DNA from: an uncultured bacterium | GTDB lineage: Bacteria > Babelota > Babeliae > Babelales > Babelaceae | Length of the DNA: 64,000 nucleotides | Assembly (NCBI GenBank): GCA_963717435.1 | Contig: OY970332.1 | Location: 1,089,903 to 1,153,902, forward strand | Direction: 5' to 3' | In this document: piece after piece, positions 1,515 through 14,569 of the stretch | How the letters are laid out: each line of letters starts with the position of its first letter | How positions within the stretch are numbered: the first letter of the stretch is position 1 | Translations under genes and position numbers: made by a program | Notes under the pieces: generated by a model | Database searches by the model: none | The model's input: the letters and a program-made list of their open reading frames with translations, nothing else | What the model was told of the DNA's origin: nothing

Positions 1515-2885
1515 TTAAGTTGGCATTTGCAGCGTCGCCCATGGACTGGTCGCACTTGCGCTGGTTATCGATGTCGTAGACGTAACCGCCCCTGCATTCA
1601 CACCACTTGTCTGATTTGCCCCTGTTGTTCCATTAAAGGCACAGTTGTTGCTCAAAAAAGCATTGCCACTTGTTCCAGTTTGCAAACTAATGCCATATGA
1701 AGTTGAGGAGGCGTTTCCTGTATTGTTCATAAAATCACAATTTATAATTTGATTGCCAGAGACCGGTGTTCCCGAAACAGCCAAAAACCCTTCAGCAGCC
1801 GAAGCTGGTGAATAATTGAAGATTGCTGCGCAGTTTAAAAAAACATTGCCAAAAGCACTTTGAACGCGAAATCCATTAGTATCTCCTGAAGTACACCTAT
1901 TATTTGAAGATATACAATTTAAAAAAACGCATGAATTGACAATGTCTAACGCAAATCCCACACATTCGTTTGTTGCGCCAAAATTGCCATCTGCTATGCA
2001 GTTCCGGAAAGTGTGACAATTACCAGAAATATTAAAAAACAATGACAAATTCGCTCCTCCTGAATTGTTTAAGACCTGACACCCATCAAGCACGTTATAT
2101 TCAGAATTTGTCGCAAAGCTAAAACCAAAAAGTGCAGTACTCGCTGTACTATTATTTCTGACTATACAATCCAGAAAATAGTTCCCAACAATCGTAGATG
2201 ATATTGAATTCAAATTTATGGCGACAAAATTGTGCGCCGAAATGGAATTGGAATTAATATCCAATCTGATAAAGCTGCAATATGTTGTATCTGTAACTCC
2301 TATTACGGACCAGTTCTGTGCAGGTGCCCCGCCATTTTTGCTAAACACGCAGTCTGAGATCAACAGGTTGCTACAATTTGAAAGACTTAAAGCGAAGTCG
2401 GCAGTCGAAGCGGTGCTACTATTGATTATCTTACAGTTTAATATTGAAGACTCTGTTATATTTGTGCCGCCAGTAATTGTAGACGTCCCATTAAAATCTA
2501 TTCCACGAACCTGACAACTATCTATAATTAAATTCTGAAGAAGCAAATTATTACATCCGGCGTTGGCGACTATACCGGCTCGTGTAAAATTTTTTATATA
2601 ACCATTTGTTATTTTAACATCACCAACACCGGCATCTATCTGGATCCCATTACAACTTGCTGTTGCACTACTTTGGGAAATCTCTCTTCCATTAAGATCA
2701 AGATTTACATAACTTGATTGGATTCGAATTGTCCCATTTGTTGCATCACCAGTTGAAAAAATATCATCGTCCAAAATATAGTTTCCCGAAGTTGTGATTA
2801 ACCAATCAACTGATTTAATTTTAAAATTGCAAGACAAAAATAAAATTAATATTAAAAATCCAAAAAACAATTTTTTAATGCCCAT
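1515..2885 (-). CDS. Secreted right-handed parallel beta-helix repeat protein, paralog 1
   Basis: 456 aa with an N-terminal hydrophobic signal (LFFGFLILILFLS). It has Asn/Ser/Thr/Gly/Cys-rich 20-25-aa turns (NGYIKNFTRAGIVANAGCNNLLLQNLIIDSCQVRGIDF) typical of PbH1/pectate-lyase-like beta-helices. The C-terminus is ...SPWATLQMPT. The first ~150 aa are nearly identical to 2945-4315 and 5549-6964. Confidence 0.8.
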   Translation of the reverse strand: MGIKKLFFGFLILILFLSCNFKIKSVDWLITTSGNYILDDDIFSTGDATNGTIRIQSSYVNLDLNGREISQSSATASCNGIQIDAGVGDVKITNGYIKNFTRAGIVANAGCNNLLLQNLIIDSCQVRGIDFNGTSTITGGTNITESSILNCKIINSSTASTADFALSLSNCSNLLISDCVFSKNGGAPAQNWSVIGVTDTTYCSFIRLDINSNSISAHNFVAINLNSISSTIVGNYFLDCIVRNNSTASTALFGFSFATNSEYNVLDGCQVLNNSGGANLSLFFNISGNCHTFRNCIADGNFGATNECVGFALDIVNSCVFLNCISSNNRCTSGDTNGFRVQSAFGNVFLNCAAIFNYSPASAAEGFLAVSGTPVSGNQIINCDFMNNTGNASSTSYGISLQTGTSGNAFLSNNCAFNGTTGANQTSGVNAGAVTSTTSITSASATSPWATLQMPT

Positions 2886-2944
2886 TACTAACCCTTTTTA
2901 AATTTTTATTCTTACTCTTAAATCACTATTATTAATTTTATTTA

Positions 2945-4315
2945 TTAAGTTGGCATCTGCAACGTTGTCCACGGCACAGTCACGCTTGCGCTCGTTACGG
3001 ACGTTGTCGCACTAACGGCTCCGGAATTAACACCCTGTGTCTGATTTGCTCCCGTTGATCCATTAAAGGCACAAGTATTTCTCAAAAATGCATTGCTTGA
3101 CCCACTGGCAGCAAAATTAATACCATATGAGTTTATAGGTCCTGTATTTCCTATAAATTGACAATCTTTGATTTCATTCATATTAACCGTTCCTGTACTC
3201 AGACTCATGCCCATGGCCGTAGTGACCCTGCCAATATTATAATTTGCCACGCAACGTAAGATCACATTTCCAATTGACGACTGAACTCTGAACCCATCCA
3301 CTTCGAACCCTGCAATATTATTAGAAGACACGCAATCCATGAACACGCTCGCATTAGTATTATTAAGCCAAATCCCAAGCGTCTGGCCGGTGGATTCTGT
3401 GGCGATATTACCATCTGCTATACAACCAACAAATGTGTTTGATATTCCGGGTGATGAAAATCCTACGGTCAGAAGGGCTGAAGAATTGTTTAATGCCTGA
3501 CAATTTTTAAATACATTGTATTCAGAATTTGTTGATGTCTGGAAACCTACAAACTGCCCGTTTGTTTGAGGGACACTATTATTTCTAGCGATACAATCTA
3601 CAAAATAGTTTCCTATAAGTTCCCCAGCTATGGAATTAAGAGATATTCCGTTCATTTGGTGTGCAGTTGAAATTGAATTGGAGTTAATATCTAATCTTAC
3701 AAAACTGCAATAACTTGAATCTGTAAGACCCACTATGGTAAAATTCTGCGCCGGGTTATTGCCGTTGGTGCTGAACTCACAGTCTGAGACCAATATTCTT
3801 GCGCAGTTTGATAAACTCAAAACAAAATCTGCCGTTGTAGATGTGCCACTATTAATTATTTTGCAGTTTGTTATCGAAGACTCTGTGATATTTGTGCCGC
3901 CCCTTATAGTTGACGTTCCGTTAAAATCTATTCCACGAACCTGGCAGCTATCGATAATTAAATTCTGCAAATATAGATTATTGCATCCGGCGTTGGCGAC
4001 AATTCCAGACTGTGTAAAATTTTTTATATAGCCATTAGATATTTTAACATCCCCAACACCAGCATCTATCTGGATCCCATTACAACTTGCTGTTGCACTA
4101 CTTTGGGAAATCTCTCTTCCATTAAGATCAAGATTTACATAACTTGATTGGATTCTAATTGTCCCGTTTGTTGCATCACCAGTTGAAAAAACATCGTCAT
4201 CTAAAATATAATTTCCCGAAGTTGTAATTAACCAGTCGACAGCTTTAATTTTAAAATTGCAAGACAAAAATAAAATTAATATTAAAAATCTAAAAAACAA
4301 TTTTTTAATGCTCAT
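2945..4315 (-). CDS. Secreted parallel beta-helix repeat protein, paralog 2
   Basis: 456 aa with the same signal peptide and N-terminal ~215 aa as paralogs 1 and 4. The centre is divergent. The C-terminus is ...VPWTTLQMPT. Confidence 0.8.
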   Translation of the reverse strand: MSIKKLFFRFLILILFLSCNFKIKAVDWLITTSGNYILDDDVFSTGDATNGTIRIQSSYVNLDLNGREISQSSATASCNGIQIDAGVGDVKISNGYIKNFTQSGIVANAGCNNLYLQNLIIDSCQVRGIDFNGTSTIRGGTNITESSITNCKIINSGTSTTADFVLSLSNCARILVSDCEFSTNGNNPAQNFTIVGLTDSSYCSFVRLDINSNSISTAHQMNGISLNSIAGELIGNYFVDCIARNNSVPQTNGQFVGFQTSTNSEYNVFKNCQALNNSSALLTVGFSSPGISNTFVGCIADGNIATESTGQTLGIWLNNTNASVFMDCVSSNNIAGFEVDGFRVQSSIGNVILRCVANYNIGRVTTAMGMSLSTGTVNMNEIKDCQFIGNTGPINSYGINFAASGSSNAFLRNTCAFNGSTGANQTQGVNSGAVSATTSVTSASVTVPWTTLQMPT

Positions 4316-4355
4316 TGCTATGCCCTTTTTAAATTTTTGCTCTTGCTATTAAAAA

Positions 4356-5507
4356 CTAGTCACTATTTGCTTGTGTAGAGTTATTATAAAACGAATTATG
4401 TCTGAAAATATTGTTATTCATAGTATAAGTATCCAAGTAAGCAAGTCCCGCAAGGCCCTGATTATTATTAAGAATGCAATTCAATGCTGAACTTTGTATC
4501 GCACCATCAAAAAGAATTCCGTAGCCAGCATTTCCGCCTTGATTGGAAAATGCATAGGCCTGGATAATATGTGAAGCGGACTCGGTTCCTGTCATGACAA
4601 AACCCGCGCCAATATTTCCACCAACATTAGATTGTCCATCGCACTGATCAAATACATTACTTATGCCGTCATATGCGCTGAAGCCGATTCCGCATCCAGC
4701 TTGAGAAACATTATTAGAACCAATGCAGTACGCCATGCCTGCGGTTTTTGTGGAATCAAATATAAATCCAGCTGCAGTGGATGTTGAAAGATTATCAAGA
4801 GTGTAATTATTGGAACCGGCGCAATATAATATTTTGCAATCGTTACAATTTTTGAAATAAGCACCTACACCAAACGGCGTTCCGCCATTGTAAAGAAACA
4901 CTGTGTTTGTAAAATGGCAAGTTTCTGAATTATAAAAATATGCACCATAGCCCGAAGCAGTGTAAGAAAAATTATTTGTAAAATAGACATGCACCATATC
5001 GATAAATGTCGTGTTGTTAAAAATACCGCCATAAGCAGCACCGCCGTTAACCCCAAGACTTCCTGAAAATGCACTTTCTGCAATACTTATCCCTGCTATC
5101 CCGTAAGTACTACCATCGCAAATTATGCCACCAGCGGCACAGCTTATAGTAAGAATATTATCGATTGTGATATCGCTGCAACCATCTGCTATGTAGATTC
5201 CATATCCTGTAAAATTTTTAAAAACACCGTTCTTTATAGTTACGTTTGAGATACCCGGAGCCAAAGTTATTCCATTAAAAGCTAGAGCGGTACCAGTTTG
5301 AATATAAGTTCGCTCAGAAAGATCGATTATCACATCCCCTGATGTAATATAACAGTAGCTATCAGAATTGATTGTCGGGTTGTATGGACCGCTTGGACTA
5401 AATCTATAATATCCCGGCTGATTCACGACTGTGGCGATGGACATCCCGAAACAAGATCCATAATTTATTAAGCCCATAATCAATAAGCTTTTTAATCTCA
5501 AATTCAT
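4356..5507 (-). CDS. Secreted beta-helix-like repeat protein, divergent paralog 3
   Basis: 383 aa with a signal peptide (LKSLLIMGLINYGSCFG) and the same N-terminal logic (ITSGDVIIDLSERTY...GITLAPGISNVTIKNGVFKNFTGYGIYI). It has Gly/Asn-rich turns. It lacks the PWxxL C-terminus. Confidence 0.7.
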   Translation of the reverse strand: MNLRLKSLLIMGLINYGSCFGMSIATVVNQPGYYRFSPSGPYNPTINSDSYCYITSGDVIIDLSERTYIQTGTALAFNGITLAPGISNVTIKNGVFKNFTGYGIYIADGCSDITIDNILTISCAAGGIICDGSTYGIAGISIAESAFSGSLGVNGGAAYGGIFNNTTFIDMVHVYFTNNFSYTASGYGAYFYNSETCHFTNTVFLYNGGTPFGVGAYFKNCNDCKILYCAGSNNYTLDNLSTSTAAGFIFDSTKTAGMAYCIGSNNVSQAGCGIGFSAYDGISNVFDQCDGQSNVGGNIGAGFVMTGTESASHIIQAYAFSNQGGNAGYGILFDGAIQSSALNCILNNNQGLAGLAYLDTYTMNNNIFRHNSFYNNSTQANSD

Positions 5508-5548
5508 AATTAGCCCTTATATTATTAGTATTATTATTAATTTATTTA

Positions 5549-6964
5549 TTAAGTTGGCATCTGCAACGTTGTCCACGGCGCGGTCACACTTGCGCTCGTT
5601 ATCGATGTTGTAGCCGTAACAGCACCGGCATTCACCCCCGATGTCTGATTTGCACCCGTTGTTCCATTAAATGCACAAGTTGTCCTCAAATATGCATTAC
5701 TTGACCCTGAAGCGGCAAAACGAATTCCATACGAGTTTGCCGCACTGCTTCCGGTATTTCCAATAAACTCACAATCTTTAATTTCATTAGTGTTAACTGT
5801 TCCACTAAACAAATACATACCTGCTGCGGTAGCATTTGTAGTCGTGCTCAAATTATAATTTGCTACACAACGCAAGAAGACATTCCCTACAGAAGATTGA
5901 ACGAGGAATCCAACCACTAGAGACCCACTCGCGCCTGAAACTATTGAAAAATTATTGGAAGCGACACAATCCATAAAAACACTAGCATTCGCACCGTTAA
6001 CAAGGAATCCAAACGTATTAAGCGCACCAGTATTTGAAGTAGAGTTATTGCCATTTGCTATACAAGCTATGAATGTGTTTGTTATTCCGGGCGTTGAAAA
6101 GCCTACACATTCGGCATTAGCCGAATTATTTAAAGCCTGGCAATTTTTAAATACGTTATATTCAGAATTTGCTGATGTCTGAAAGCCTATAAAGAAGGAG
6201 CTGGCGCTCGCCGCTGGAACCATATTATTTCTTGCTATGCAATCAACAAAATAGTTTCCTATAAGTTCCGCAGCAACTGAATTAAAATATACTCCGTACA
6301 TTTGGTGCGCAGTTGAAATCGAATTAGAGTTAATATCTAATCTTACAAAGCTGCAATAGCTTGAATCTGTGAGAGTCACTATACCAAAATTGGTTGATGT
6401 AGTAGCCCCGCCATTTGTGCTGAACACGCAATCTGAGACAAGTATTCTTGCGCAATTGGATAAACTCAAAACAAAATCTGCAGTTGTTGCCGTACTGCTG
6501 TTAATTATTTTGCAATTGGTTATCGAAGACTCTGTTATATTTGTACCGCCCCTTATAGTTGAAGTTCCATTGAAATCTATTCCACGAACCTGGCAGCCAT
6601 CGATAATTAAATTCTGCAAATATAGATTATTGCACCCGGCGTTGGCGACAATTCCAGACTGTGTAAAATTTTTTATATAGCCATTAGATATTTTAACATC
6701 CCCAACACCAGCATCTATCTGGATCCCATTGCAGCTTGCTGTTGCGCTACTTTGATAGATAACTCTTCCATTAAGATCAAGATTTACATAACTTGATTGG
6801 ATTCTAATTGTCCCGTTTGTTGCATCACCAGTTGAAAAAATATCGTCATCTAAAATATAGTTTCCCGAAGTTGTGATTAACCAATCAACTGATTTAATTT
6901 TAAAACTGTAAGACAAAAATAAAATTAATATTAAAAACCCATATGCTAACTTTTTGCTGTACAT
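5549..6964 (-). CDS. Secreted parallel beta-helix repeat protein, paralog 4
   Basis: 471 aa, closest to paralog 2 along its whole length, with small insertions in the centre. The C-terminus is ...APWTTLQMPT. Confidence 0.8.
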   Translation of the reverse strand: MYSKKLAYGFLILILFLSYSFKIKSVDWLITTSGNYILDDDIFSTGDATNGTIRIQSSYVNLDLNGRVIYQSSATASCNGIQIDAGVGDVKISNGYIKNFTQSGIVANAGCNNLYLQNLIIDGCQVRGIDFNGTSTIRGGTNITESSITNCKIINSSTATTADFVLSLSNCARILVSDCVFSTNGGATTSTNFGIVTLTDSSYCSFVRLDINSNSISTAHQMYGVYFNSVAAELIGNYFVDCIARNNMVPAASASSFFIGFQTSANSEYNVFKNCQALNNSANAECVGFSTPGITNTFIACIANGNNSTSNTGALNTFGFLVNGANASVFMDCVASNNFSIVSGASGSLVVGFLVQSSVGNVFLRCVANYNLSTTTNATAAGMYLFSGTVNTNEIKDCEFIGNTGSSAANSYGIRFAASGSSNAYLRTTCAFNGTTGANQTSGVNAGAVTATTSITSASVTAPWTTLQMPT

Positions 6965-7043
6965 TACTATCGCCTTTTTTTTACTTTATTACTTCACCCA
7001 ATATGTATAAAATTTAATTTATTTTGTAAATAATAAAAAATTT

Positions 7044-8735
7044 TTAACTCGCTATTCTCAAATTTGTCCATGGAGACATAGCGCTACTTACCCTTGACGA
7101 AGGAGACACGCCACCGCCACCACCAGGTGTCATCATTGAACCTACTGGCAAGCCAAACAATTGATTTGCAATCAATGGCGTTGTTACGCCATTTGCATAT
7201 GAAATATTCTGGGTAAAAATATTATTACTATTTAGTGTATAAATTCCATACGAGTTGGCATCCACCGTTGCTGCATTTTGGCTAACCATGCAACCTGAAA
7301 TCACATTGCTTGATGAACTGGCATCTAAGTATATGCCGTAAGCCTGCTGCAGCGACGTGGCTGCCGTATTACTTTTTATTACGCAATTCGATATATTATT
7401 TCCCGTGCTATTAGCTGCACCGGAACTGAGGTATATACCAATAAAAACTTGACCTTGTGCAGTATTTGATTCGATTCTGCAGGACGTAATATCGTTTGCT
7501 TGTGCCTGCGCTATTTGGATCCCATAGAAGGTTGTTGTATGCAGATTACCTGATATCAAACAATCACTAATGAAATTACTATAGCTGAGTGTACCTACCA
7601 CAACAAGGCCGGGGCTAAGACGTTGATTATTTGTAATTAAACATCTTAAGACTGAATTTAATGCTGAGGCTGAAATATAAAAAGCATTTAAAAAACATGT
7701 ATTTCCGCTAATCACGCAATCTTCAAATACATTACCTGCTGTCAGGCCCGACGAAGCAGGGGAAGCTGAACTATTCCCAATTAAAGATACAAATGCTCCC
7801 GATGATGAAGAAGTAGCAATGTTTCCCTGAGCCACACAGTTCCTGACAAAATTATTAGAGCTGTATTGAAGGTTAAAACAAGTAAAATCGACAGGAACAG
7901 TATTGCCAAGAAATTGACAATTTTCAATAAAATTTTGGCTACAGGTATTAGCAGACAGAGAATTCAGCGCTATCCCGTAAGATACGCCTGCGTTGATGAG
8001 ATTATTTCTAATTGAGACATCTGAGATAATATTATTAGAGCAAAGTGATGATACAGTTGTAAGCTGTATGGCATACAGATTACCAGTTGAGCCACCTCCC
8101 GTGTTTTCACTTATATCAATATTTTTTAAAGAACAAGAATTTGAGTCTGTTAAGCCTATAAATGAAAAGCTACTGCTGTTTGTAGTATTATTATTAAACG
8201 TGCAACCTGAAACAAGAACTGATTGGCAGTTTGAAAGATTTATGCCAAAATCTGAAGAGGCATTGGAAAAACAGCCTATAAAGTTGCAGTTATTGATTTG
8301 CGAAGCCGTTATATTTGACCCACCCGTTCCGGTAAAAGTACCAGAAAAATCTATACCCCGTGTCTGGCAATTTGCAAAATCAAGATTTTGCAAAGTAATC
8401 ACACTACAACCTGCCTGAGCTAATACGCCAGCACGGGTAAAGCCAAGTAGCGTCCCGTTTTGTATCGTTACGTTTGTAACACCGGGCGCAATTACGATTC
8501 CGTTACAACTTGCTGTCGCCGTTGTCTGGATCACTGAATATTCGTTCAGGTCCAATGTAACATAACTTGCCTGAATCAAGATCGTTCCGTTAGGATCGCC
8601 GCTTGATGTAATATTTGTTCCAAGTTCGTAGTTACCGGAATGCGTAATTAAAAAATCTGTCGTATGCGTTGTGTTAAAAAAAGATATTAAAAAAAATAAG
8701 CTTAAAATTAATTTATTAAATTCTTTTGCCCGCAT
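7044..8735 (-). CDS. Secreted parallel beta-helix repeat protein, paralog 5 (start trimmed)
   Basis: The ORF track gives 7044-8870, but the first 45 codons read through a GC-rich intergenic repeat. Met46 (MRAKEFNKLILSLFFLISFF, ATG at 8735) begins a normal signal peptide followed by the family N-terminus (DFLITHSGNYELG...YVTLDLNEY). The C-terminus is ...SPWTNLRIAS. Confidence 0.7.
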   Translation of the reverse strand: MRAKEFNKLILSLFFLISFFNTTHTTDFLITHSGNYELGTNITSSGDPNGTILIQASYVTLDLNEYSVIQTTATASCNGIVIAPGVTNVTIQNGTLLGFTRAGVLAQAGCSVITLQNLDFANCQTRGIDFSGTFTGTGGSNITASQINNCNFIGCFSNASSDFGINLSNCQSVLVSGCTFNNNTTNSSSFSFIGLTDSNSCSLKNIDISENTGGGSTGNLYAIQLTTVSSLCSNNIISDVSIRNNLINAGVSYGIALNSLSANTCSQNFIENCQFLGNTVPVDFTCFNLQYSSNNFVRNCVAQGNIATSSSSGAFVSLIGNSSASPASSGLTAGNVFEDCVISGNTCFLNAFYISASALNSVLRCLITNNQRLSPGLVVVGTLSYSNFISDCLISGNLHTTTFYGIQIAQAQANDITSCRIESNTAQGQVFIGIYLSSGAANSTGNNISNCVIKSNTAATSLQQAYGIYLDASSSSNVISGCMVSQNAATVDANSYGIYTLNSNNIFTQNISYANGVTTPLIANQLFGLPVGSMMTPGGGGGVSPSSRVSSAMSPWTNLRIAS

Positions 8736-8807
8736 CCCTCGATACACCCTTCGGGCACTCCCAGGCTTCGTGCAAGACTTCGCCGGGCGCGGGGGGAGGA
8801 GCGGCTT
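8736..8807. repeat. Diverged copy of the GC-rich miniature element family
   Basis: ccctcgatacacccttcgggcactcc...gccgggcgcggggggaggagcgg shares the ccctcgataca core with the copies at 23927, 29571, 41548 and 45382. It is a GC-rich island in AT-rich DNA. Confidence 0.45.
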
Positions 8808-9016
8808 TTGGGAATTATTTTTTTGAGTTTTAACCACCTTGATAAACTTATTAATTGTTTTGCAAATCATTAATTAGTCATCCTTTTTTTGATTTATATC
8901 TTCCTGACTGACTCGGGCAAATTTTGCCAACCTTCTTTGGAGCGGGTTTTTTATTTTTCCCCGCTCCTGCGCATATCATATTCAACTTTTTTACGAGCTT
9001 CAACATATAATCCCTT

Positions 9017-12000
9017 TTAATTAACCGAAATATTTGTCCATGGAGCTGTAACTGCATTTAGGTTCGATATGTCTGTGGATATAGAGGTTGATCCTGAAAT
9101 AAATTGGCTGTATGGATTTGTGTTTTTTGTCGCAATGTTTTGAACAAATGCCGCAATTGTCGCGTTATTTGGCTCTATACGATATCCATAATCATTTCTT
9201 GAAGCTTGGCAGTTTCTTACAGTGTTATTTGCTCCATTCGCGTTTCTTATACCCACTGAACTTGCGGTTACACCAGCATTTGCCGTCTGACCCAATGCAA
9301 TACAGTTATACAACAACGAATCGTTACATGTATTTAAATCGAAACCAAATGCACCAAATAGTCCCGCGGTACTTGATGTTGCATTATTACTATCAGCAAA
9401 GCAACTTATACAAGAGAGCCTTATGGCATTATTGAAACTGAAACCATAAGCAATTGCAGATGCAGATGCACCAGTTGATATGTTATTTACGGCCCGCGAA
9501 TTTATAAATAAGTTGTCATTACAGTTTGCATTCACCAAGAACCCGTATGCCGTTGTCGTTCCACTATTTATGCCAGCAGTACAAGTATCGAATGTATTAC
9601 ATGTGGAAGATGAAACTAAATCGAAACCGTATATGGAACCGTTTGCTACCGTATTTGATCTTGCCGTGCAATATTTGAATGAACTGTTTGTTACAGCATT
9701 CATTAAGAAGCCAGAGCTTCCCGAGTTGTCGCACGCGTCAACAACAAGCATATCCACTTTAACTGAGTTATTAACACTTACTACTGTTAGGGTTAATGCA
9801 TTTGAAGTCAGACCGTTTAGATTAACGCGACAGGTATTGATTTTCAAATCAGAAGCATAGTTAATAAACAGTGGGCTATTTGCACCGTTGGCTGTTGAAC
9901 AAGAGAAAATATCGCAATTGTTAATTAGACCCTCGTTCAATGTACCAGTTCCGGACGTACCATTAAGGGCGATTCCACCAGTTGCGCAAGATGTTATTGT
10001 TGTGGCCAAAATCTTATAGCGATCAACGTTTGACTGCAGCGTCAAACCTGTTCCTGTAAATCCATTAATTCTGCCACCCGTTACTATAACATCGGTGTAA
10101 TTTGAGCTAACAACAACACCATTAACGCCCGTGCTTGCATTTGTTTGTCTTAAGGTGAAGCATGAAAGATCGAGTGTCACATACGAAGAGTTTATTGTTA
10201 TCGCTGTTGTGTTATTTGCGCCAGTAAATGATATATCTGAACCCAATCTATAGACGCCCGAAGTTGTTATCACGTACGGAGTTGAACCTGAACCAAAATT
10301 TGCTTGGGTTATTATTGTCGCCGCGCACTCATCCGCATTTAATGTTGCAAGTATTGTCCAGGTTGCCGCAAAGTCGTTTACTACTATAGTTTGTAAAGCT
10401 GCAATACTTGTAAATGTATTTAAAACGTTTGTATTTATTGTATTTAATACTGTGAATGTATTTGCGGTGCTTATATTTGCTATCGCCGTGAAAGTATTTA
10501 GCACGTTCGTGTTTATTGTCGCCAGTATCGTCCACGTATTATTAAAGTCTTGCTGAGTTTGCGCACAACACGCTGTCACTGAGTTTTTCAAGTCAGCGAT
10601 TGCTGTAAATGTATTTAGCACGTTGGTGTTTATTGTATTTAATACCGTAAATGTTGCCGCATTGCTTAGATTTGCGAGAATCGTCCACGTTGCTGCAAAG
10701 TCTGAAATTATTGTGTTATTGATAGCCGAAAGTATCGTCCATGTGCTATTGAAATCGTTAACAACTGTATTTTGCAGAGTTGCAATACTTGTGAAAGTAT
10801 TTAGCACGTTGGTATTTATTGTCGCCAATATTGTCCATGTATTATTAAAGTCTTGCTGCGTTTGCGCACAACATGCTGTCACAGTGTTTTGTAATTCTGC
10901 AATTGCTGTAAATGTATTTACGCTGCTTATATTTGCAAGTATCGTCCATGTGCTATTGAAATCGTTAACAACTGTATTTTGCAGAGTTGCGATACTCGTG
11001 AAAGTATTTAGCACGTTGGTATTTATTGTCGCCAATATTGTCCATGTATTATTAAAGTCTTGCTGCGTTTGCGCACAACACGCTGTCACTGAATTTTTCA
11101 AGTCAGCGATTGCTGTAAATGTATTTACGCTGCTTATATTTGCAAGTATCGTCCATGTGCTATTGAAATCGTTAACAACTGTATTTTGCAGAGTTGCGAT
11201 ACTCGTGAAAGTATTTAGCACGTTGGTATTTATTGTCGCCAGTATTGTCCATGTATTATTAAAGTCTTGCTGCGTTTGCGCACAACACGCTGTCACTGAA
11301 TTTTTTAAATCTGCGATTGCTGTAAATGTATTTACGCTGCTTATATTTGCAAGTATTGTCCATGTGCTATTAAAGTCTGAAACTATCGTGTTTTCGATAG
11401 CAGCTAATATTGTCCAAGTACTATTGAAATCGTTAACAACTGTATTTTGCAGATTCGCAATACTCGTGAAAGTATTTAGCACGTTGGTATTTATTGTCGC
11501 CAATATTGTCCATGTATTATTAAAGTCTTGCTGTGTTTGCGCACAACATGCTGTCACAGTGTTTTGTAATTCTGCAATTGCTGTAAATGTATTTACGCTG
11601 CTTATATTTGCAAGTATCGTCCATGTGCTATTAAAGTCTGAAACTATCGTGTTTAATATATTTGCTTCTATTGTCCAAGTACTATTGAAATCGTTAACAA
11701 CTGTATTTTGCAGATTCGCAATACTCGTGAAAGTATTTAGCACGTTCGTGTTTATTGTCGCCAATATTGTCCATGTATTATCAAAATCCTGCTGGGTTTG
11801 GGCACAACATGCTGTTAACGTGTTCTGTAATTCTGCAATTGCTGTAAATGTATTTACGCTGCTTATATTTGCAAGTATCGTCCATGTGCTATTAAAGTCT
11901 GAAACTATCGTGTTTAATATATTTGCTTCTATTGTCCAAGTACTATTGAAATCGTTAACAACTGTATTTTGCAGATTCGCAATACTCGTGAAAGTATTTA

Positions 12001-14569
12001 GCACGTTCGTGTTTATTGTCGCCAATATTGTCCATGTATTATCAAAATCCTGCTGAGTTTGCGCACAACATGCTGTTAACGTGTTTTGCAACTCTGCGAT
12101 TGCTGTAAATGTATTTACGCTGCTTATATTTGCAAGTATCGTCCATGTGCTATTAAAGTCGTTAACAACTGTATTTTGCAACTCTGCGATACTCGTGAAA
12201 GTATTTAGCACATTGGTATTTATTGTCGCCAATATTGTCCATGTATTATCAAAATCCTGCTGCGTTTGCGCACAACATGCTGTTAACGTGTTCTGTAATT
12301 CTGCAATTGCCGTAAACGTACCCGACAGGTCCACAACGGCTGTTGTCGTTGATATTGAAGCTTGTATCTGTGCTAATATTGTCCAGGTATTATTAAAGTC
12401 TTGCTGGGTTTGTGCACAACATGCTGTCACCGTCTCTTGTAACTCTGCAATCGCCGTAAATGTATTTAACACGTTTACATTTATCGTATTTAATACGGTA
12501 AATGTAGAACCCACTGACAGGTTATTTATCTCGTTACTTATAGCTGCAAGTATTGTCCATGTATTATTAAAGTCTTGTTGAGTTTGTTCACAACATGCTG
12601 TTACTGTGTTTTGTAACTCTGCAATTGCTGTAAATGTATTTAACACGTTTACATTTATCGTGTTCAATACTGTAAATGTCGAACCTATTGATAGGTTATT
12701 TATCTCATTACTTATAGCTGCAAGTATTGTCCATGTATTATTAAAGTCTTGTTGAGTTTGTGCACAACATGCTGTTACCGTGTTTTGCAACTCTGCAATT
12801 GCTGTAAATGTGCCCGATAGGTCCACAACTGCTGTTGTTGTTGATATTGAAGACTGTATCTGTGCAAGTATTGTCCATGTACTATTAAAATCCGTAACTA
12901 TCGTATTTTCGATCGCAGCTAATATTGTCCAAGTAGCATTGAAGTCGCTTTGTGTCTGAGCGCAACATGCCGTTACAGTGTTTTGTAATTCTGCAATTGC
13001 TGTAAACGTACCCGACAAATCTACGACAGCTGTTGTTGTTGCTATCGAAGATTGTATATGTGCAAGTATCGTCCATGTACTATTAAAATCTGTAACTATC
13101 GTATTTTCAATCGCAGCTAATATTGTCCAGGTATTATCAAAATCTTGTTGCGTTTGGGCACAACATGCTGTCACCGTGTTTTGCAACTCCGCAATTGCTG
13201 TAAATGTATTCACGCTGCTTATATTTGCAAGTATCGTCCATGTGCTATTAAAATCCGTAACTATCGTGTTTTCAATCGCAGCCAATATCGTCCAGGTATT
13301 ATCAAAATCTTGCTGAGTTTGAGCACAACATGCTGTCACCGTGTTTTGCAACTCCGCAATTGCTGTAAATGTATTCACGCTGCTTATATTTGCAAGTATC
13401 GTCCATGTGCTATTAAAATCCGTAATTATCGTGTTTTCAATCGCAGCCAGTATCGTCCAGGTATTATCAAAATCTTGCTGAGTTTGAGCACAACATGCCG
13501 TCAGCGTATTTTGTAACTCCGCAATTGCTGTAAATGTGGCATCAAATTGTGCACCAAATGTTATAACTATAGTCGGTGTTGTTAAAGTTGATAAAATCTC
13601 ATTTAAGAGAGAAAACGTTGTATTAAAATTATTTTGAGTTTGAACGCAACATGTTGTTACAGTATTTGTAAGATCAGCTAAAATTGTAAATGTGCTATTA
13701 AATTCTGTTGTTACTAAAGCAATTAAAGTATTTAATAACCCTATTATTGTACTTATTCCCTGGCATTGGGTTGAACTTATTGATGCCTGAATATTTAAAA
13801 GCAGCGCCAAAATATCAACGCCACCAACACAAAATTTTCCATTAACAACTAAATTGCCGCAAATTCTTAAAGAGTCATTAATTATTAATGCGCCAAGTCT
13901 TTTTATTTTGGCACCGCGTCTTGTTGCCGCCAAATCATCTGATGTTGAAATAGAGTTTTTATTAACTTCGTTTTGATATTCTTCTAATTTTGCCTGAATA
14001 CTCTTTAAATCTTGAATTAAGTTTTTCGCATCTTCTGAAGATAACCCGTTATCAAAAACCGCAGAGCCTACAGATTCATTGGATTCACCATATCTCTGAT
14101 GCATACTTTCGGTAAACTTTAAGCAACAATCTGATATTGTCTTTTCAATTAAAGAAATCTGATTTTCAAGTGGACTCAGGTCATACACAGACGCTATAGA
14201 ATATGACATGTTCCTAAATTCAGATGGATCCATTTGGTGCACATTTGATATATAATCTACGGCGCCTTCTGGGTATTCATTTTTGAGCTCTTTATAAGAT
14301 TCCAGATCACGGGTTAATTTTTCCAGAGCACCATTATCTCTTGCCGCTCTTTCTATTGCTTGCGCAAGTTGGGCCATCTTTTCTTCATCGCCTAACTGGC
14401 CACTTTCAGAAAAATTATCTTCACAAAATTCGGTTATTAAATCTAGCGGACGCCCGTGAGATAAGCCAAACGGATCAGAATTTTCTGGACAAAAACTATT
14501 GAACCAAAAAACAGAAATAAAAAATATAAGATAAACAGACAACTTGAAATGCTTCTTACGTATATTCAT
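9017..14569 (-). CDS. Giant secreted fibre-like protein: signal peptide, coiled-coil-like N-region, ~1,125-aa Cys-Cys module array, C-terminal beta-helix domain
   Basis: Uninterrupted 1,850-aa ORF with an N-terminal hydrophobic segment (LSVYLIFFISVFWFNSF). Charged helical stretches follow (EEKMAQLAQAIERAARDNGALEKLTRDLESYKELKNE). Residues ~286-1411 are modular repeats. Residues ~1412-1850 are homologous to the neighbouring beta-helix paralogs (VITTSGVYRLGSDISF...SSYVTLDLSCFTL). The C-terminus is ...APWTNISVN. Confidence 0.85.
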   Translation of the reverse strand: MNIRKKHFKLSVYLIFFISVFWFNSFCPENSDPFGLSHGRPLDLITEFCEDNFSESGQLGDEEKMAQLAQAIERAARDNGALEKLTRDLESYKELKNEYPEGAVDYISNVHQMDPSEFRNMSYSIASVYDLSPLENQISLIEKTISDCCLKFTESMHQRYGESNESVGSAVFDNGLSSEDAKNLIQDLKSIQAKLEEYQNEVNKNSISTSDDLAATRRGAKIKRLGALIINDSLRICGNLVVNGKFCVGGVDILALLLNIQASISSTQCQGISTIIGLLNTLIALVTTEFNSTFTILADLTNTVTTCCVQTQNNFNTTFSLLNEILSTLTTPTIVITFGAQFDATFTAIAELQNTLTACCAQTQQDFDNTWTILAAIENTIITDFNSTWTILANISSVNTFTAIAELQNTVTACCAQTQQDFDNTWTILAAIENTIVTDFNSTWTILANISSVNTFTAIAELQNTVTACCAQTQQDFDNTWTILAAIENTIVTDFNSTWTILAHIQSSIATTTAVVDLSGTFTAIAELQNTVTACCAQTQSDFNATWTILAAIENTIVTDFNSTWTILAQIQSSISTTTAVVDLSGTFTAIAELQNTVTACCAQTQQDFNNTWTILAAISNEINNLSIGSTFTVLNTINVNVLNTFTAIAELQNTVTACCEQTQQDFNNTWTILAAISNEINNLSVGSTFTVLNTINVNVLNTFTAIAELQETVTACCAQTQQDFNNTWTILAQIQASISTTTAVVDLSGTFTAIAELQNTLTACCAQTQQDFDNTWTILATINTNVLNTFTSIAELQNTVVNDFNSTWTILANISSVNTFTAIAELQNTLTACCAQTQQDFDNTWTILATINTNVLNTFTSIANLQNTVVNDFNSTWTIEANILNTIVSDFNSTWTILANISSVNTFTAIAELQNTLTACCAQTQQDFDNTWTILATINTNVLNTFTSIANLQNTVVNDFNSTWTIEANILNTIVSDFNSTWTILANISSVNTFTAIAELQNTVTACCAQTQQDFNNTWTILATINTNVLNTFTSIANLQNTVVNDFNSTWTILAAIENTIVSDFNSTWTILANISSVNTFTAIADLKNSVTACCAQTQQDFNNTWTILATINTNVLNTFTSIATLQNTVVNDFNSTWTILANISSVNTFTAIADLKNSVTACCAQTQQDFNNTWTILATINTNVLNTFTSIATLQNTVVNDFNSTWTILANISSVNTFTAIAELQNTVTACCAQTQQDFNNTWTILATINTNVLNTFTSIATLQNTVVNDFNSTWTILSAINNTIISDFAATWTILANLSNAATFTVLNTINTNVLNTFTAIADLKNSVTACCAQTQQDFNNTWTILATINTNVLNTFTAIANISTANTFTVLNTINTNVLNTFTSIAALQTIVVNDFAATWTILATLNADECAATIITQANFGSGSTPYVITTSGVYRLGSDISFTGANNTTAITINSSYVTLDLSCFTLRQTNASTGVNGVVVSSNYTDVIVTGGRINGFTGTGLTLQSNVDRYKILATTITSCATGGIALNGTSGTGTLNEGLINNCDIFSCSTANGANSPLFINYASDLKINTCRVNLNGLTSNALTLTVVSVNNSVKVDMLVVDACDNSGSSGFLMNAVTNSSFKYCTARSNTVANGSIYGFDLVSSSTCNTFDTCTAGINSGTTTAYGFLVNANCNDNLFINSRAVNNISTGASASAIAYGFSFNNAIRLSCISCFADSNNATSSTAGLFGAFGFDLNTCNDSLLYNCIALGQTANAGVTASSVGIRNANGANNTVRNCQASRNDYGYRIEPNNATIAAFVQNIATKNTNPYSQFISGSTSISTDISNLNAVTAPWTNISVN
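10336..13712 (-). repeat. In-frame coding tandem/modular repeat array inside the giant gene
   Basis: TACC(A/E)QTQ occurs 15 times plus one degenerate TTCCVQTQ. Modules are 54-100 aa. In the 3' part the unit is exactly 207 nt (cgctgcttatatttgcaag at 10921, 11128, 11335). Confidence 0.9.

What the first reader, a model, noticed from the sequence alone, without database searches (positions are those of the whole stretch)
1515..14569. 13-kb tandem array of six secreted beta-helix paralogs with homogenised ends and divergent centres
Seen: six consecutive minus-strand ORFs (1515-2885, 2945-4315, 4356-5507, 5549-6964, 7044-8735, 9017-14569) are separated by only ~40-280 nt. Each opens with a hydrophobic signal sequence and is built from Asn/Ser/Thr/Gly/Cys-rich 20-25-aa turns. 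Three members (456/456/471 aa) are nearly identical at nucleotide level over the 5' ~450-600 nt (compare 2641-2885, 4071-4315, 6720-6964) and again over the last ~150 nt. Their central ~200 codons differ in sequence and length. All members are very dense in N-x-S/T sequons.

Inference: homogenised ends with a diversified middle is the signature of a variable surface-exposed or host-contact repertoire (adhesins, receptor-binding or glycan-cleaving heads). Beyond the generic parallel beta-helix fold I cannot place them in a named family. I see no autotransporter barrel, LPXTG or large C-terminal sorting domain.
Basis: partly seen in the sequence, partly recalled or inferred. Interest (0 to 1): 0.8.

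Follow-up and report, generated by a model that had tools for sequence, protein, structure and literature searches.

The report
Tandem secreted beta-helix family with fibre
Six neighbouring genes in a small, probably Dependentiae-like (protist-parasite) bacterial genome encode exported beta-helix proteins of an unnamed but widespread family; one of them sits on a very long helical stalk, and three have been patched together by gene conversion, which makes them likely but unproven cell-surface or host-contact proteins.

Summary
Six intact minus-strand genes (A–F, 1515–14569) lie 40–281 nt apart. Each has a signal-peptide-like N-terminus and a right-handed β-helix (AlphaFold pLDDT 93 for B and >95 for the F head). 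A, B and D are true mosaics. The 5' 300–450 nt are 86–94% identical, the centre 35–60%, and the last 150 nt 76–85%. Synonymous divergence follows the same pattern, and the 5' third is a patchwork of AB/AD/BD tracts, so this is gene conversion and not only selection.

Some details were overstated. The 3' ends are not nearly identical. The coils are about 26–31 aa. Sequon density is what the composition predicts. dN/dS is below 1 throughout.

The genes belong to an unnamed family with 247 cluster representatives at E<1e-30. The family is defined by a signal peptide, a Cys/Asn/Gly/Phe ladder and a conserved C-terminal tail ending PW[TS]N. F is the fibre form: N-domain, about 1,125 aa of Gly/Pro-free helical repeats, a CxPxxIxQ-type neck, then the head. 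Tandem arrays with conserved stalks and divergent heads recur in Babeliales/Dependentiae MAGs.

No catalytic residues are conserved. The best reading is variable, non-enzymatic surface or host-binding heads. That function is inferred, not shown.

The parts
1515..2885 (-). Paralogue A, 456 aa. Signal-peptide-like N-terminus, beta-helix, conserved C-terminal tail (…SPWATLQMPT).
   Evidence: ORF; family HMM E=2e-126; 67% aa identity to B and 65% to D.
2945..4315 (-). Paralogue B, 456 aa. This is the member that was modelled.
   Evidence: AlphaFold2 pLDDT 93.2, right-handed beta-helix of about 13 coils, residues 2-20 helical (signal peptide); 78% aa identity to D.
4356..5507 (-). Paralogue C, 383 aa. 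Divergent member that stops at '…TQANSD', so it lacks the PWTN tail. It lies between the closest pair, B and D.
   Evidence: Family HMM E=2e-51 over positions 8-382; Pfam Beta_helix 27.1 bits; alignment.
5549..6964 (-). Paralogue D, 471 aa.
   Evidence: ORF; family HMM E=6e-133.
7044..8735 (-). Paralogue E, 563 aa, with extra coils inserted. An alternative start at 8870 would give 608 aa.
   Evidence: Pfam Beta_helix 65.9 bits and NosD 28.5 bits; alignment shows an insertion of about 90 aa; both candidate starts have an AAAAAGG-type motif upstream.
9017..14569 (-). Gene F, 1850 aa. Fibre-type member of the family.
   Evidence: ORF; domain breakdown.
14489..14569 (-). F signal peptide or signal anchor (aa 1-27, MNIRKKHFKLSVYLIFFISVFWFNSFC).
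   Evidence: Four K/R residues followed by a hydrophobic core with mean Kyte-Doolittle score 2.5.
13703..14488 (-). F N-terminal domain (aa 28-289). It is charged and predicted helical. It corresponds in position to the N-domain of other fibre-type relatives.
   Evidence: Sequence; relatives P0013, P0023, P0026, P0030 and the L003/L024 ORFs have a comparable N-domain carrying an 'APRPDAP' motif, which is not evident in F.
10328..13702 (-). F stalk (aa 290-1414). About 60 short units of 12-52 aa (nearly all 14-26), of the types TFTAIAELQNTVTACCAQTQQD and FNxTWTILAxIxNTIVxD, arranged in nested tandem DNA repeats of 165-261 nt.
   Evidence: Tandem Repeats Finder; unit parsing; composition T 20%, N 14%, G 0.5%, P 0.1%; AlphaFold2 predicts long alpha-helices of 65-78 residues at low confidence, pLDDT 50-64.
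10292..10327 (-). F neck motif CAATIITQANFG (aa 1415-1426) between stalk and head.
   Evidence: The motif C-x-[PA]-x-x-[IFL]-x-Q-[AS]-[NDH]-x-[GE] is found at the stalk/head junction of P0011, P0013, P0014, P0023, P0026, P0030, P0068, P0083 and P0155.
9020..10291 (-). F beta-helix head plus tail (aa 1427-1850, ending …TAPWTNISVN). This is the module shared with A-E.
   Evidence: blastp against A, B, D and E, 28-37% identity; family HMM positions 19-439; AlphaFold2 pLDDT >95.
2436..2885 (-). Homogenised 5' tract of A (first 450 nt).
   Evidence: 86-90% nt identity to B and D; dS 0.17-0.9 against 1 to saturated in the centre; blockwise AB/AD/BD site patterns.
3866..4315 (-). Homogenised 5' tract of B.
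   Evidence: Same analyses as for A.
6515..6964 (-). Homogenised 5' tract of D.
   Evidence: Same analyses as for A. B-D identity is 98-100% over nt 240-360.
8939..8967 (-). Hairpin GGAGCGGG-N13-CCCGCTCC, 49 nt after the F stop codon. Candidate terminator separating F from E-A.
   Evidence: Sequence; RNAfold -15.9 kcal/mol. There is no T-run, so this is not proven.

Best explanation
**What it is.** The locus is a lineage-specific multigene family of Sec-exported, most likely non-enzymatic, right-handed beta-helix 'head' proteins. It sits in a ~1.2-Mb genome that is probably Dependentiae/Babeliales-like.

**The family module.** Each member has four elements:
1. A signal peptide.
2. An N-terminal cap with the motif VxLDLxGxxIxQ.
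3. About 13 coils held by an internal Cys/Asn/Gly/Phe ladder.
4. A conserved ~35-aa C-terminal tail ending PW[TS]N-h-x-h.

**The two forms.** F carries this head at the far end of a neck and a ~1,125-residue Gly/Pro-free helical repeat stalk. The stalk is probably an oligomeric coiled coil, up to ~170 nm long if fully extended, and is rooted by an N-terminal domain and hydrophobic segment. F would therefore be a cell-surface fibre. A-E are stalk-less heads.

**How the array evolves.** A, B and D are old duplicates: synonymous sites in their centres are saturated. Their lateral helix surfaces have diverged by substitutions and indels. Repeated short gene-conversion tracts keep the signal peptide, cap and first ~5 coils uniform, and to a lesser degree the C-terminal tail. 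These are presumably the parts that interact with common export, assembly or anchoring partners.

**Proposed function.** The array would be a repertoire of binding heads for different ligands on the host protist or its phagosome.

**Shown:** gene structure, fold, family membership, mosaicism and conversion, recurrence of tandem arrays, and absence of conserved catalytic residues.

**Inferred:** export beyond the inner membrane, surface location, oligomeric state, ligand binding and host role.
For: - **Fold.** AlphaFold2 gives pLDDT 93.2 for B and >95 for the F head, with helical stalk segments. Pfam Beta_helix matches A-E.
- **Export signals.** All six have signal-peptide-like N-termini. Among ~440-aa relatives that start with Met, 75 of 88 have one too.
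- **Family size.** An exhaustive profile search found 5137 hits at E<1e-3 and 247 at E<1e-30. Most are full-length ~440-aa matches, plus long fibre forms.
- **Family motifs.** The C-terminal aromatic-x-N motif is present in 115 of 147 top relatives. Stalk repeats are present in 14 of 33 long relatives.
- **Conserved columns.** They are a structural ladder only; the one strongly conserved charged residue is D63 in the cap.
- **Composition.** Charge is low (D+E 4-6%, K+R 2.5-4.6%) and N/S/T/G content is high.
- **Gene conversion.** dS is 0.17-0.4 in the first 100 codons against 1 to saturated in the centre. Site patterns run in blocks AB, AD, BD, AB, BD within the first 360 nt, and the longest identical runs are never reached in 2000 shuffles.
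- **Genes are functional.** All ORFs are intact, dN/dS is below 0.6, and an RBS-like AAAAAGGG motif lies before each start.
- **Generality.** Tandem arrays occur in Babeliales/Dependentiae MAG loci L003, L023 and L024 and on a JGI contig. L023 and L024 show a conserved stalk with a divergent head.
- **No phage or enzyme family match.** PHROGs gave none. A PDB profile search gave nothing below E=0.06. PDB fold matches are generic, with TM ≤0.40.
Against: - There is no direct evidence of surface exposure, secretion across the outer membrane, oligomerisation or binding.
- No formal signal-peptide predictor was available.
- dN/dS gives no sign of positive selection, although the centre is saturated.
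- The best PDB structural neighbours are polysaccharide depolymerases, epimerases and lyases, so an enzymatic role cannot be excluded. Catalytic residues differ between beta-helix enzyme families and could be member-specific.
- Stalk helices have low confidence (pLDDT 50-64), and the hydrophobic periodicity spectrum is not cleanly alpha-helical.
- The taxonomic assignment rests only on the affiliations of relatives. The genome itself was not found among the GTDB species representatives.
Confidence: 0.5

Rival explanations
1. The proteins are secreted polysaccharide-active enzymes (depolymerase, lyase or epimerase-like beta-helices). They would digest host or prey glycans, for example the protist glycocalyx or cell wall. 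The paralogues would cover different substrates, as multiple phage tailspikes do.
For: The best PDB structural neighbours are Klebsiella phage depolymerases, the K1 capsule lyase, the HK620 tailspike, AlgG/AlgE epimerases, a PL6 lyase and GH28/GH87 enzymes. Pfam NosD/Beta_helix (CASH-type) matches are present. The stalk-plus-head layout of F resembles phage tailspikes and fibres.
Against: These matches are weak (TMq ≤0.40, E ≥1e-5, 9-13% identity) and typical of any beta-helix. Profile searches against PDB sequences and PHROGs find nothing. Across 50 members at ~30% identity, no acidic or basic residue of the helix body is conserved above ~60%; only the cap residue D63 is.
Confidence: 0.2
2. 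The proteins are structural envelope components (periplasmic, outer-membrane-associated or S-layer-like) of an LPS-less diderm. They would have no direct role in host recognition. The paralogues would be redundant and homogenised simply because they are adjacent.
For: They carry signal peptides but no recognisable outer-membrane translocation module. Purifying selection acts throughout. In this window and on a JGI contig the array sits next to cell-division and envelope genes (ftsW here, ftsZ/ftsA there).
Against: A purely structural role does not predict strongly diverged helix bodies with indels alongside conserved termini. It also does not predict a ~1,100-aa stalk carrying the module at its tip, or the recurrent conserved-stalk, divergent-head pattern in other genomes.
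Confidence: 0.17
3. The genes are a remnant of a prophage or other virus-derived cassette (tail fibre or tailspike genes), or a recent transfer from a giant virus that shares the protist host.
For: In the viral structure library the best matches to both B and the F head are Klosneuvirinae giant-virus beta-helix proteins (TMq up to 0.69, E 1e-12 to 1e-13). Phage tailspikes and pre-neck appendages follow.
Against: There are no phage genes in the neighbourhood, which holds housekeeping genes: ftsW, an M17 peptidase, pgk and dnaA. There were no PHROG hits. GC content is the same as the flanks. Two pattern scans of IMG/VR followed by tblastn confirmation found no sequence relative. Sequence identity to the giant-virus models is only 12-17%.
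Confidence: 0.06
4. The array is an artefact or a set of relics: assembly-duplicated copies or decaying pseudogenes.
For: C lacks the C-terminal tail, and E has an ambiguous start.
Against: The copies differ by 22-35% at the protein level, so they cannot be assembly duplicates. All six reading frames are intact. dN/dS is 0.03-0.58. An RBS-like motif lies upstream of every gene.
Confidence: 0.02

Closest known systems
Pectin-lyase-fold / right-handed parallel beta-helix superfamily (Pfam clan of PF13229 Beta_helix, PF05048 NosD; PbH1/CASH repeats)
   Same: Same fold (AlphaFold2). Pfam Beta_helix is above its cutoff for E and C and borderline for A, B and D. The Asn ladder and the N-terminal 'LDL.G' cap are typical of the fold.
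   Different: No specific family model matches. There is a distinctive Cys ladder, a conserved PW[TS]N C-terminal tail, and no conserved catalytic or metal-binding residues.
Phage tailspikes / tail fibres and their multi-RBP cassettes (e.g. HK620, K1/K64-1 depolymerases, phi29 gp12)
   Same: A beta-helix head on an elongated N-terminal part. Paralogues have a conserved N-terminal or stalk region and a divergent head. Mosaic exchange occurs between copies.
   Different: There is no sequence relationship. The genes have signal peptides and a housekeeping chromosomal context. Structural similarity is low (TMq ≤0.40). No catalytic residues are conserved.
Chlamydial polymorphic membrane proteins (Pmp; type V autotransporters)
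   Same: A paralogous, partly tandem family of beta-helix proteins with signal peptides in an obligate intracellular bacterium, thought to mediate adhesion.
   Different: There are no GGA[ILV] motifs (0 in all six). FxxN occurs only at background frequency. There is no Pfam Chlam_PMP hit and no C-terminal autotransporter barrel.
Trimeric autotransporter adhesins (YadA/BadA-type) and other coiled-coil surface fibres
   Same: F combines a long, Gly/Pro-free, short-period (15/18/22-aa) repeat stalk predicted to be helical with a globular or solenoid head. This gives the 'lollipop' logic of a fibre that holds a binding head away from the cell.
   Different: The polarity is opposite: the hydrophobic anchor is N-terminal and the head C-terminal. 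There is no YadA anchor barrel. The head is a single-chain right-handed beta-helix, not a left-handed trimeric beta-roll. The oligomeric state is unknown.
Right-handed beta-helix proteins of Klosneuvirinae giant viruses (e.g. Klosneuvirus KNV1 A0A1V0SLS7, Hyperionvirus A0A3G5A7R0)
   Same: These are the closest predicted structures found (TMq 0.69, RMSD 4-5 Å, E 1e-12). They also come from parasites of protists, and their function is also uncharacterised.
   Different: Identity is only 12-17%. No sequence-level relatives were found in IMG/VR by two motif scans. It could not be tested whether they carry the cap or tail motifs.
Gene-conversion-maintained surface multigene families (e.g. Helicobacter babA/babB, Anaplasma msp2, Neisseria opa; from general knowledge)
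   Same: Adjacent paralogues have homogenised termini and divergent central regions, with short patchwork conversion tracts.
   Different: There is no evidence here of expression switching, silent cassettes or phase-variable repeats. All copies appear to be complete genes with their own RBS.

Membership tests
Right-handed parallel beta-helix (pectin-lyase fold) superfamily | Three-stranded right-handed coils stacked into a solenoid | tested here: met
   AlphaFold2 for B gives pLDDT 93.2 and pTM 0.90, with a regular E-E-E pattern for ~13 coils. The F head has pLDDT >95. All top Foldseek hits are beta-helix proteins.
Right-handed parallel beta-helix (pectin-lyase fold) superfamily | Match to Pfam PF13229 Beta_helix above the gathering score | tested here: inconclusive
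   E scores 65.9 and C 27.1 bits (cutoff 25.9). B scores 25.7, A 23.4 and D 23.4, all below. F had no listed hit.
Beta-helix polysaccharide lyases/hydrolases/epimerases (PL1/3/6/9, GH28, AlgG/AlgE, tailspike depolymerases) | Conserved catalytic acidic/basic residues in the PB1 groove | tested here: not met
   In the 50-member alignment, the only charged column at or above 90% is D63 in the N-cap. Helix-body D/E or K/R/H columns are mostly 60-62% (highest K/R/H column, ref. pos. 412, 76%).
Beta-helix polysaccharide lyases/hydrolases/epimerases (PL1/3/6/9, GH28, AlgG/AlgE, tailspike depolymerases) | Sequence match to a characterised family | tested here: not met
   Best result of the PDB profile search was E=0.066. 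Pfam and NCBIfam show no lyase or hydrolase family.
Chlamydial Pmp / type V autotransporters | GGA[ILV] and FxxN repeats; C-terminal autotransporter beta-barrel | tested here: not met
   GGA[ILV] count is 0 in all six proteins. No PF02415 or PF03797 hit at E ≤1.
Trimeric autotransporter adhesins | C-terminal YadA-like membrane anchor; trimeric coiled-coil stalk | tested here: not met
   No YadA anchor, head or stalk Pfam hit. The C-terminus is the beta-helix head. Trimer state is not testable with these tools.
Phage tailspike / tail fibre families | Homology to a phage structural family and phage genomic context | tested here: not met
   No PHROG hit to any head. Neighbours are ftsW, an M17 peptidase, pgk and dnaA.
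NosD (nitrous-oxide reductase maturation) | PF05048 match plus nosZ/nosF/nosY/nosL context | tested here: not met
   Only E passes PF05048 (28.5 vs 23.6 bits). No nos genes were seen among the window ORFs scanned.
Unnamed 'PWTN-tail beta-helix' family defined here (relatives include Dependentiae/Babeliales MAGs) | End-to-end match to the family profile: signal peptide, VxLDLxGxxIxQ cap, C/N/G/F ladder | tested here: met
   A, B, D and E match HMM positions ~4-440 with E 1e-116 to 1e-133. The F head matches positions 19-439. C matches positions 8-382. There are 247 cluster representatives at E<1e-30.
Unnamed 'PWTN-tail beta-helix' family defined here (relatives include Dependentiae/Babeliales MAGs) | C-terminal tail …ANQ..G…PW[TS]N-h-x-h-COOH | tested here: met
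   The tail is present in A, B, D, E and F and absent in C. It is present in 115 of 147 top relatives.
Sec-dependent secreted proteins | Cleavable N-terminal signal peptide | tested here: inconclusive
   The n-region (K/R) plus hydrophobic h-region heuristic is positive for all six. Residues 2-20 of B are modelled as a separate helix. No SignalP or LipoP was available, and cleavage sites are not established.

The most novel reading that the evidence does not exclude
The PWTN-tail beta-helix heads and their TWTIL-repeat stalks form a previously unrecognised cell-surface fibre system of Dependentiae. It would be evolutionarily linked, by transfer or common origin, to the beta-helix proteins of Klosneuvirinae giant viruses. 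Unrelated parasites of protists (bacteria and giant viruses) would then use the same fibre-head module to attach to their hosts or trigger uptake. The tandem, gene-converted head repertoire would set host range.
Probability: 0.1. Interest if true: 0.75.

Novelty: new variant of a known kind. Interest (0 to 1): 0.5.

Why it matters
Dependentiae (TM6/Babelota) are widespread obligate parasites of protists with very few cultured members. How they attach to and enter their hosts is unknown. In the library searched here, none of the papers that mention the phylum describes a beta-helix or fibre protein family.

This locus defines a large family that no curated model covers. It has clear sequence signatures, a fibre form and a stalk-less form, and an evolutionary mode (conserved termini, divergent heads, gene conversion) that is typical of receptor-binding repertoires. 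That gives concrete candidates for host-recognition determinants, and antigens for localisation studies.

If instead the proteins prove to be enzymes or envelope components, the family is still a useful marker. It is also an instructive case in which word-indexed homology searches failed (5 hits) while exhaustive profile search found thousands.

Tried and rejected
- **Word-indexed protein searches.** Two searches with a single protein and with a 50-sequence profile returned only 5 proteins each, because low-complexity words swamped the candidate list. The exhaustive HMM search was needed.
- **Finding the source genome.** An exact-protein contig look-up for B failed. The look-up for FtsW returned only a 3-kb Logan contig. 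The window's genome is not among the GTDB species representatives.
- **NCBIfam.** No family matched. The Pfam hits of F to KxDL, Tos1 and BRSK-KA1 have no individually significant stretch and are repeat artefacts. The same applies to the PHROG hits of the stalk.
- **Promoter and terminator scan.** Counts did not exceed shuffled expectation.
- **Sequon enrichment.** Rejected by the shuffle test.
- **Pmp membership.** Rejected.
- **Giant-virus sequence link.** Two IMG/VR scans, one with N-terminal motifs and one with C-terminal motifs, gave no confirmed relative. One alignment was too divergent for pattern design.
- **Hydrophobic-moment spectrum of the stalk.** It gave no clean alpha-helical peak, so the helical assignment rests on a low-confidence AlphaFold2 model and on the absence of Gly and Pro.
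- **Literature.** Searches for Dependentiae with beta-helix or adhesin, and for Klosneuvirus with beta-helix, found nothing relevant.
Full report
**1. What is in the sequence**

The region 1515-14569 holds six intact minus-strand ORFs at exactly the coordinates given:
- A: 1515-2885, 456 aa
- B: 2945-4315, 456 aa
- C: 4356-5507, 383 aa
- D: 5549-6964, 471 aa
- E: 7044-8735, 563 aa. The longest ORF runs to 8870 and would give 608 aa.
- F: 9017-14569, 1850 aa

The gaps between them are 59, 40, 41, 79 and 281 nt. GC content (35-39%) is the same as in the flanks.

Each start codon is preceded at 7-12 nt by an AAAAAGGG-like motif. E has two candidate starts with such a motif. A strong hairpin at 8939-8967 (-15.9 kcal/mol) lies 49 nt after the F stop. 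It may separate F from E-A. Consensus promoter and terminator scans did not exceed shuffled expectation.

The neighbours are housekeeping genes: ftsW, an M17 aminopeptidase, pgk and dnaA. An AAA_14/DUF4143 ATPase is also adjacent. This is chromosomal, non-phage context.

**2. Are they paralogues, exported, and beta-helical?**

All six are paralogues.
- A, B and D are 65-78% identical at the protein level.
- E is about 38% identical to them.
- The last ~425 aa of F are 28-37% identical to A, B, D and E.
- C is the most divergent, with matches mostly in its N-terminal third.
- All six hit one family HMM with E from 1e-51 to 1e-133. No other ORF in the 64-kb window does.

All six start with K/R residues followed by a 10-15-residue hydrophobic core. 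No formal signal-peptide predictor was available.

Pfam finds only the generic Beta_helix model (PF13229). It is clearly above its cutoff for E, just above for C, and borderline for A, B and D. E also matches NosD. NCBIfam finds nothing.

AlphaFold2 of B with a 50-sequence family alignment gives pLDDT 93.2 and pTM 0.90. The model is a right-handed three-stranded solenoid of about 13 coils, and residues 2-20 form a separate helix, the signal peptide. The F head is modelled with pLDDT >95.

**3. The mosaic**

Sliding-window nucleotide identity among A, B and D runs as follows:

| Region | Identity |
|---|---|
| First ~270 nt | 85-100% |
| nt ~240-390, B-D pair | 92-100% (≥98% over nt 241-360) |
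| Centre | 35-60%, with indels |
| Last ~150 nt | 76-85% |
| First 245 nt overall | 88-94% |
| First 450 nt overall | 86-92% |

Synonymous divergence follows the same shape. dS is 0.17-0.43 in the first 100 codons, 1 to saturated in the centre, and 0.45-1.1 in the tail. The 5' similarity is therefore not explained by protein-level constraint alone.

In the first 360 nt the variable sites fall into consecutive blocks in which a different pair is identical each time: AB, then AD, BD, AB and BD. The longest identical runs (94, 54 and 95 nt) were never reached in 2000 column shuffles. This is the signature of repeated short gene-conversion tracts.

dN/dS is 0.03-0.58 in every segment. The genes are under purifying selection, and there is no positive evidence of diversifying selection. 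Saturation in the centre makes that test weak.

The copies differ far too much to be assembly duplicates.

B and D are the closest pair, yet the divergent gene C lies between them.

**4.

- The 3' ends are only moderately homogenised.
- Coil length, judged from the conserved ladder spacing, is about 26-31 aa, not 20-25 aa.
- N-x-S/T sequon counts (10-17 per protein) match composition-preserving shuffles, with z from -0.2 to 1.6. They carry no independent meaning.
- C ends at '…TQANSD' and lacks the C-terminal tail that the other five share.
- F is mainly not beta-helix (section 6).

**5. The family**

Word-indexed searches returned only this genome's copies and three metagenomic proteins. An exhaustive profile search of 1.84 billion cluster representatives found 5137 proteins at E<1e-3 and 247 at E<1e-30.

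Of the 147 best relatives:
- 90 are 400-480 aa long and match end to end.
- 75 of the 88 short ones that start with Met have a hydrophobic N-terminus.
- 115 keep an aromatic-x-N motif 6-11 residues from the C-terminus, typically PW[TS]N-h-x-h.

All those looked up are unnamed metagenomic 'hypothetical proteins'.

Columns conserved across 50 members at about 30% identity are:
- a cap, (I)…G.Y…V.LDL.G..I.Q;
- a once-per-coil Cys/Asn/Gly/Phe ladder;
- the tail, F.RN.A..NG.T.ANQ..G…PWTN.

The only strongly conserved charged residue is D63 in the cap. Overall charge is very low, and N/S/T/G are abundant.

**6. The fibre form**

F has six parts:
1. aa 1-27: a signal peptide or signal anchor.
2. aa 28-289: a charged N-terminal domain.
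3. aa 290-1414: about 60 short units of 12-52 aa (nearly all 14-26).
4. aa 1415-1426: a neck, CAATIITQANFG.
5. A beta-helix head, starting at aa 1427.
6. The C-terminal tail, ending at aa 1850.

The stalk units are of two types, TFTAIAELQNTVTACCAQTQQD and FNxTWTILAxIxNTIVxD. They are organised in nested DNA tandem repeats of 165-261 nt at 82-96% identity.

The stalk contains 0.5% Gly and 0.1% Pro. AlphaFold2 predicts helices of 65-78 residues with short breaks, at low confidence (pLDDT 50-64), as expected for a monomer model of an oligomeric coiled coil. Unit lengths of 15, 18 and 22 residues are compatible with non-heptad coiled coils; this is my inference. If fully extended, 1,125 helical residues would span up to ~170 nm, also an inference. 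The hydrophobic periodicity spectrum was not decisive.

The same architecture recurs in relatives. P0013 and P0155 (1570 and 1651 aa), P0026, P0030, P0011 and others have FxxTW[TS] repeats, a C-x-P-x-x-I-x-Q-[AS]-[ND]-x-G neck, and the PWTN tail. Several also carry an 'APRPDAP' motif in the N-domain.

**7. Related loci**

A genome-collection scan found relatives in 'Candidatus Babeliales' and 'Dependentiae' MAGs (L003, L023, L024). It also found weaker, N-terminal-only matches in Planctomycetota and Verrucomicrobiota. The window's own genome, a 1,198,203-bp contig, was not among the species representatives.

Tandem arrays are the rule:
- four genes of ~660 aa in L003;
- three genes of ~980 aa in L023;
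- genes of 798 and 1406 aa in L024;
- four genes in L001;
- genes of 437, 447 and 421 aa next to ftsZ/ftsA on a JGI contig.

In L023 and L024 the paralogues are 75-100% identical across the N-domain and stalk, but only 40-60% identical in the head, with a slight rise at the end. This is the same logic as in A, B and D.

GrpE and an unknown 437-aa protein of the window have 41-43% identical orthologues beside the L024 fibre gene. With the eukaryote-like WD40 protein in the window, this fits a Dependentiae-like organism, but it is not proof.

**8. Comparison with known structures and families**

- The profile search against PDB sequences found nothing better than E=0.066.
- Foldseek against the PDB gave only generic beta-helix hits: phage depolymerases and tailspikes, AlgG/AlgE epimerases, a PL6 lyase, DFA-IIIase and NosD. 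These have TMq ≤0.40 and 9-13% identity.
- Foldseek against predicted viral structures gave its best hits, for both B and the F head, to Klosneuvirinae giant-virus beta-helix proteins. TMq reaches 0.69, RMSD is 4-5 Å, E is 1e-12 to 1e-13, and identity is 12-17%.
- Two IMG/VR motif scans found no sequence relative.
- PHROGs had no hit to any head.
- Pmp hallmarks are absent: no GGA[ILV] motifs and no autotransporter barrel.
- Literature searches found no description of such a family in Dependentiae.

**9. Interpretation**

The most likely reading is a lineage-specific family of exported, non-enzymatic beta-helix heads (confidence about 0.5 for the functional part). The heads would be used either free or at the tip of a long helical fibre, as a diversified binding repertoire. 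Gene conversion would preserve the parts that deal with common export, assembly or anchoring partners.

The steps that are shown are gene structure, fold, family, mosaicism and conversion, recurrence of arrays, and lack of conserved catalytic residues. The steps that are inferred are surface location, oligomeric state, ligand binding and host role.

The rivals are:
- polysaccharide-active enzymes (0.2);
- envelope structural proteins (0.17);
- virus-derived cassette (0.06);
- artefact or relics (0.02).

**10. Verdict**

The finding is real and mostly well described. The family is unnamed and sizeable, and the fibre architecture and C-terminal signature are new descriptive elements. The kind of thing, however, is familiar: a beta-helix surface protein family kept mosaic by gene conversion. 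I rate it a new variant of a known kind, of moderate interest.

Noticed in passing
window 29711-31078 (-): A dnaA gene (Bac_DnaA, DnaA_N and DnaA_C domains) lies ~15 kb from the array, so the window probably lies close to the chromosomal replication origin.
   Followed up: no
window 42266-43417 (+): A eukaryote-like seven-bladed WD40 beta-propeller protein (Pfam WD40, 285 bits). This type of protein is typical of intracellular parasites of protists, and it has an Amycolatopsis-like hit in L020.
   Followed up: no
window 19944-21389 (-): A thioredoxin-reductase-like flavoprotein fused to a C-terminal thioredoxin domain. A second, stand-alone reductase-like gene lies at 49505-50434.
   Followed up: no
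window 180-1358 (-): An AAA_14 + DUF4143 ATPase lies directly downstream of paralogue A. A distant relative (25% identity) also lies near the beta-helix genes in locus L025.
   Followed up: partly
window 8736-8870 (-): E has an alternative upstream ATG at 8870 with the same AAAAAAAGG motif. It would add 45 K/R/P-rich residues before the hydrophobic segment, giving a signal anchor rather than a signal peptide. Database gene calls use the 608-aa form (P0007).
   Followed up: partly
window 8939-8967 (-): An 8-bp GC-rich hairpin (GGAGCGGG…CCCGCTCC, -15.9 kcal/mol) lies 49 nt after the F stop, without a T-run. It is a possible terminator or processing site.
   Followed up: partly
window 10623-12056 (+) and other + strand ORFs inside F: Long antisense ORFs (up to 477 aa) lie within the F repeat region. 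They are repetitive and hydrophobic, and most simply explained as by-products of the repeats rather than genes.
   Followed up: no
L003, L024 and proteins P0013, P0023, P0026, P0030: Fibre-type relatives share an '(R/K)APRPDAP…VGPL.EC' motif at the end of their N-terminal domain, just before the stalk. F does not obviously have it. Its role is unknown; it could be a processing or attachment site.
   Followed up: partly
window 60285-62337 vs L024 11422-13361: GrpE and an unknown 437-aa protein have 41-43% identical orthologues immediately next to the fibre gene of a Babeliales MAG. In the window they lie ~46 kb from F. This suggests rearranged synteny.
   Followed up: no
window 50446-59407 and 61024-62337: A run of ORFs of 230-440 aa has no Pfam match at E ≤1e-5 (50446-51450, 52828-53688, 54575-55273, 57295-58368, 58433-59407, 59549-60262, 61024-62337). 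These are lineage-specific genes of unknown function.
   Followed up: no
L002, L005-L016, L019, L026 (Planctomycetota/Verrucomicrobiota MAGs): The N-terminal cap plus the first coils (HMM positions ~20-145) also match tandemly arranged beta-helix genes in PVC-group MAGs, for example five in a row in L007. The cap module is therefore more widely distributed than the full family.
   Followed up: partly
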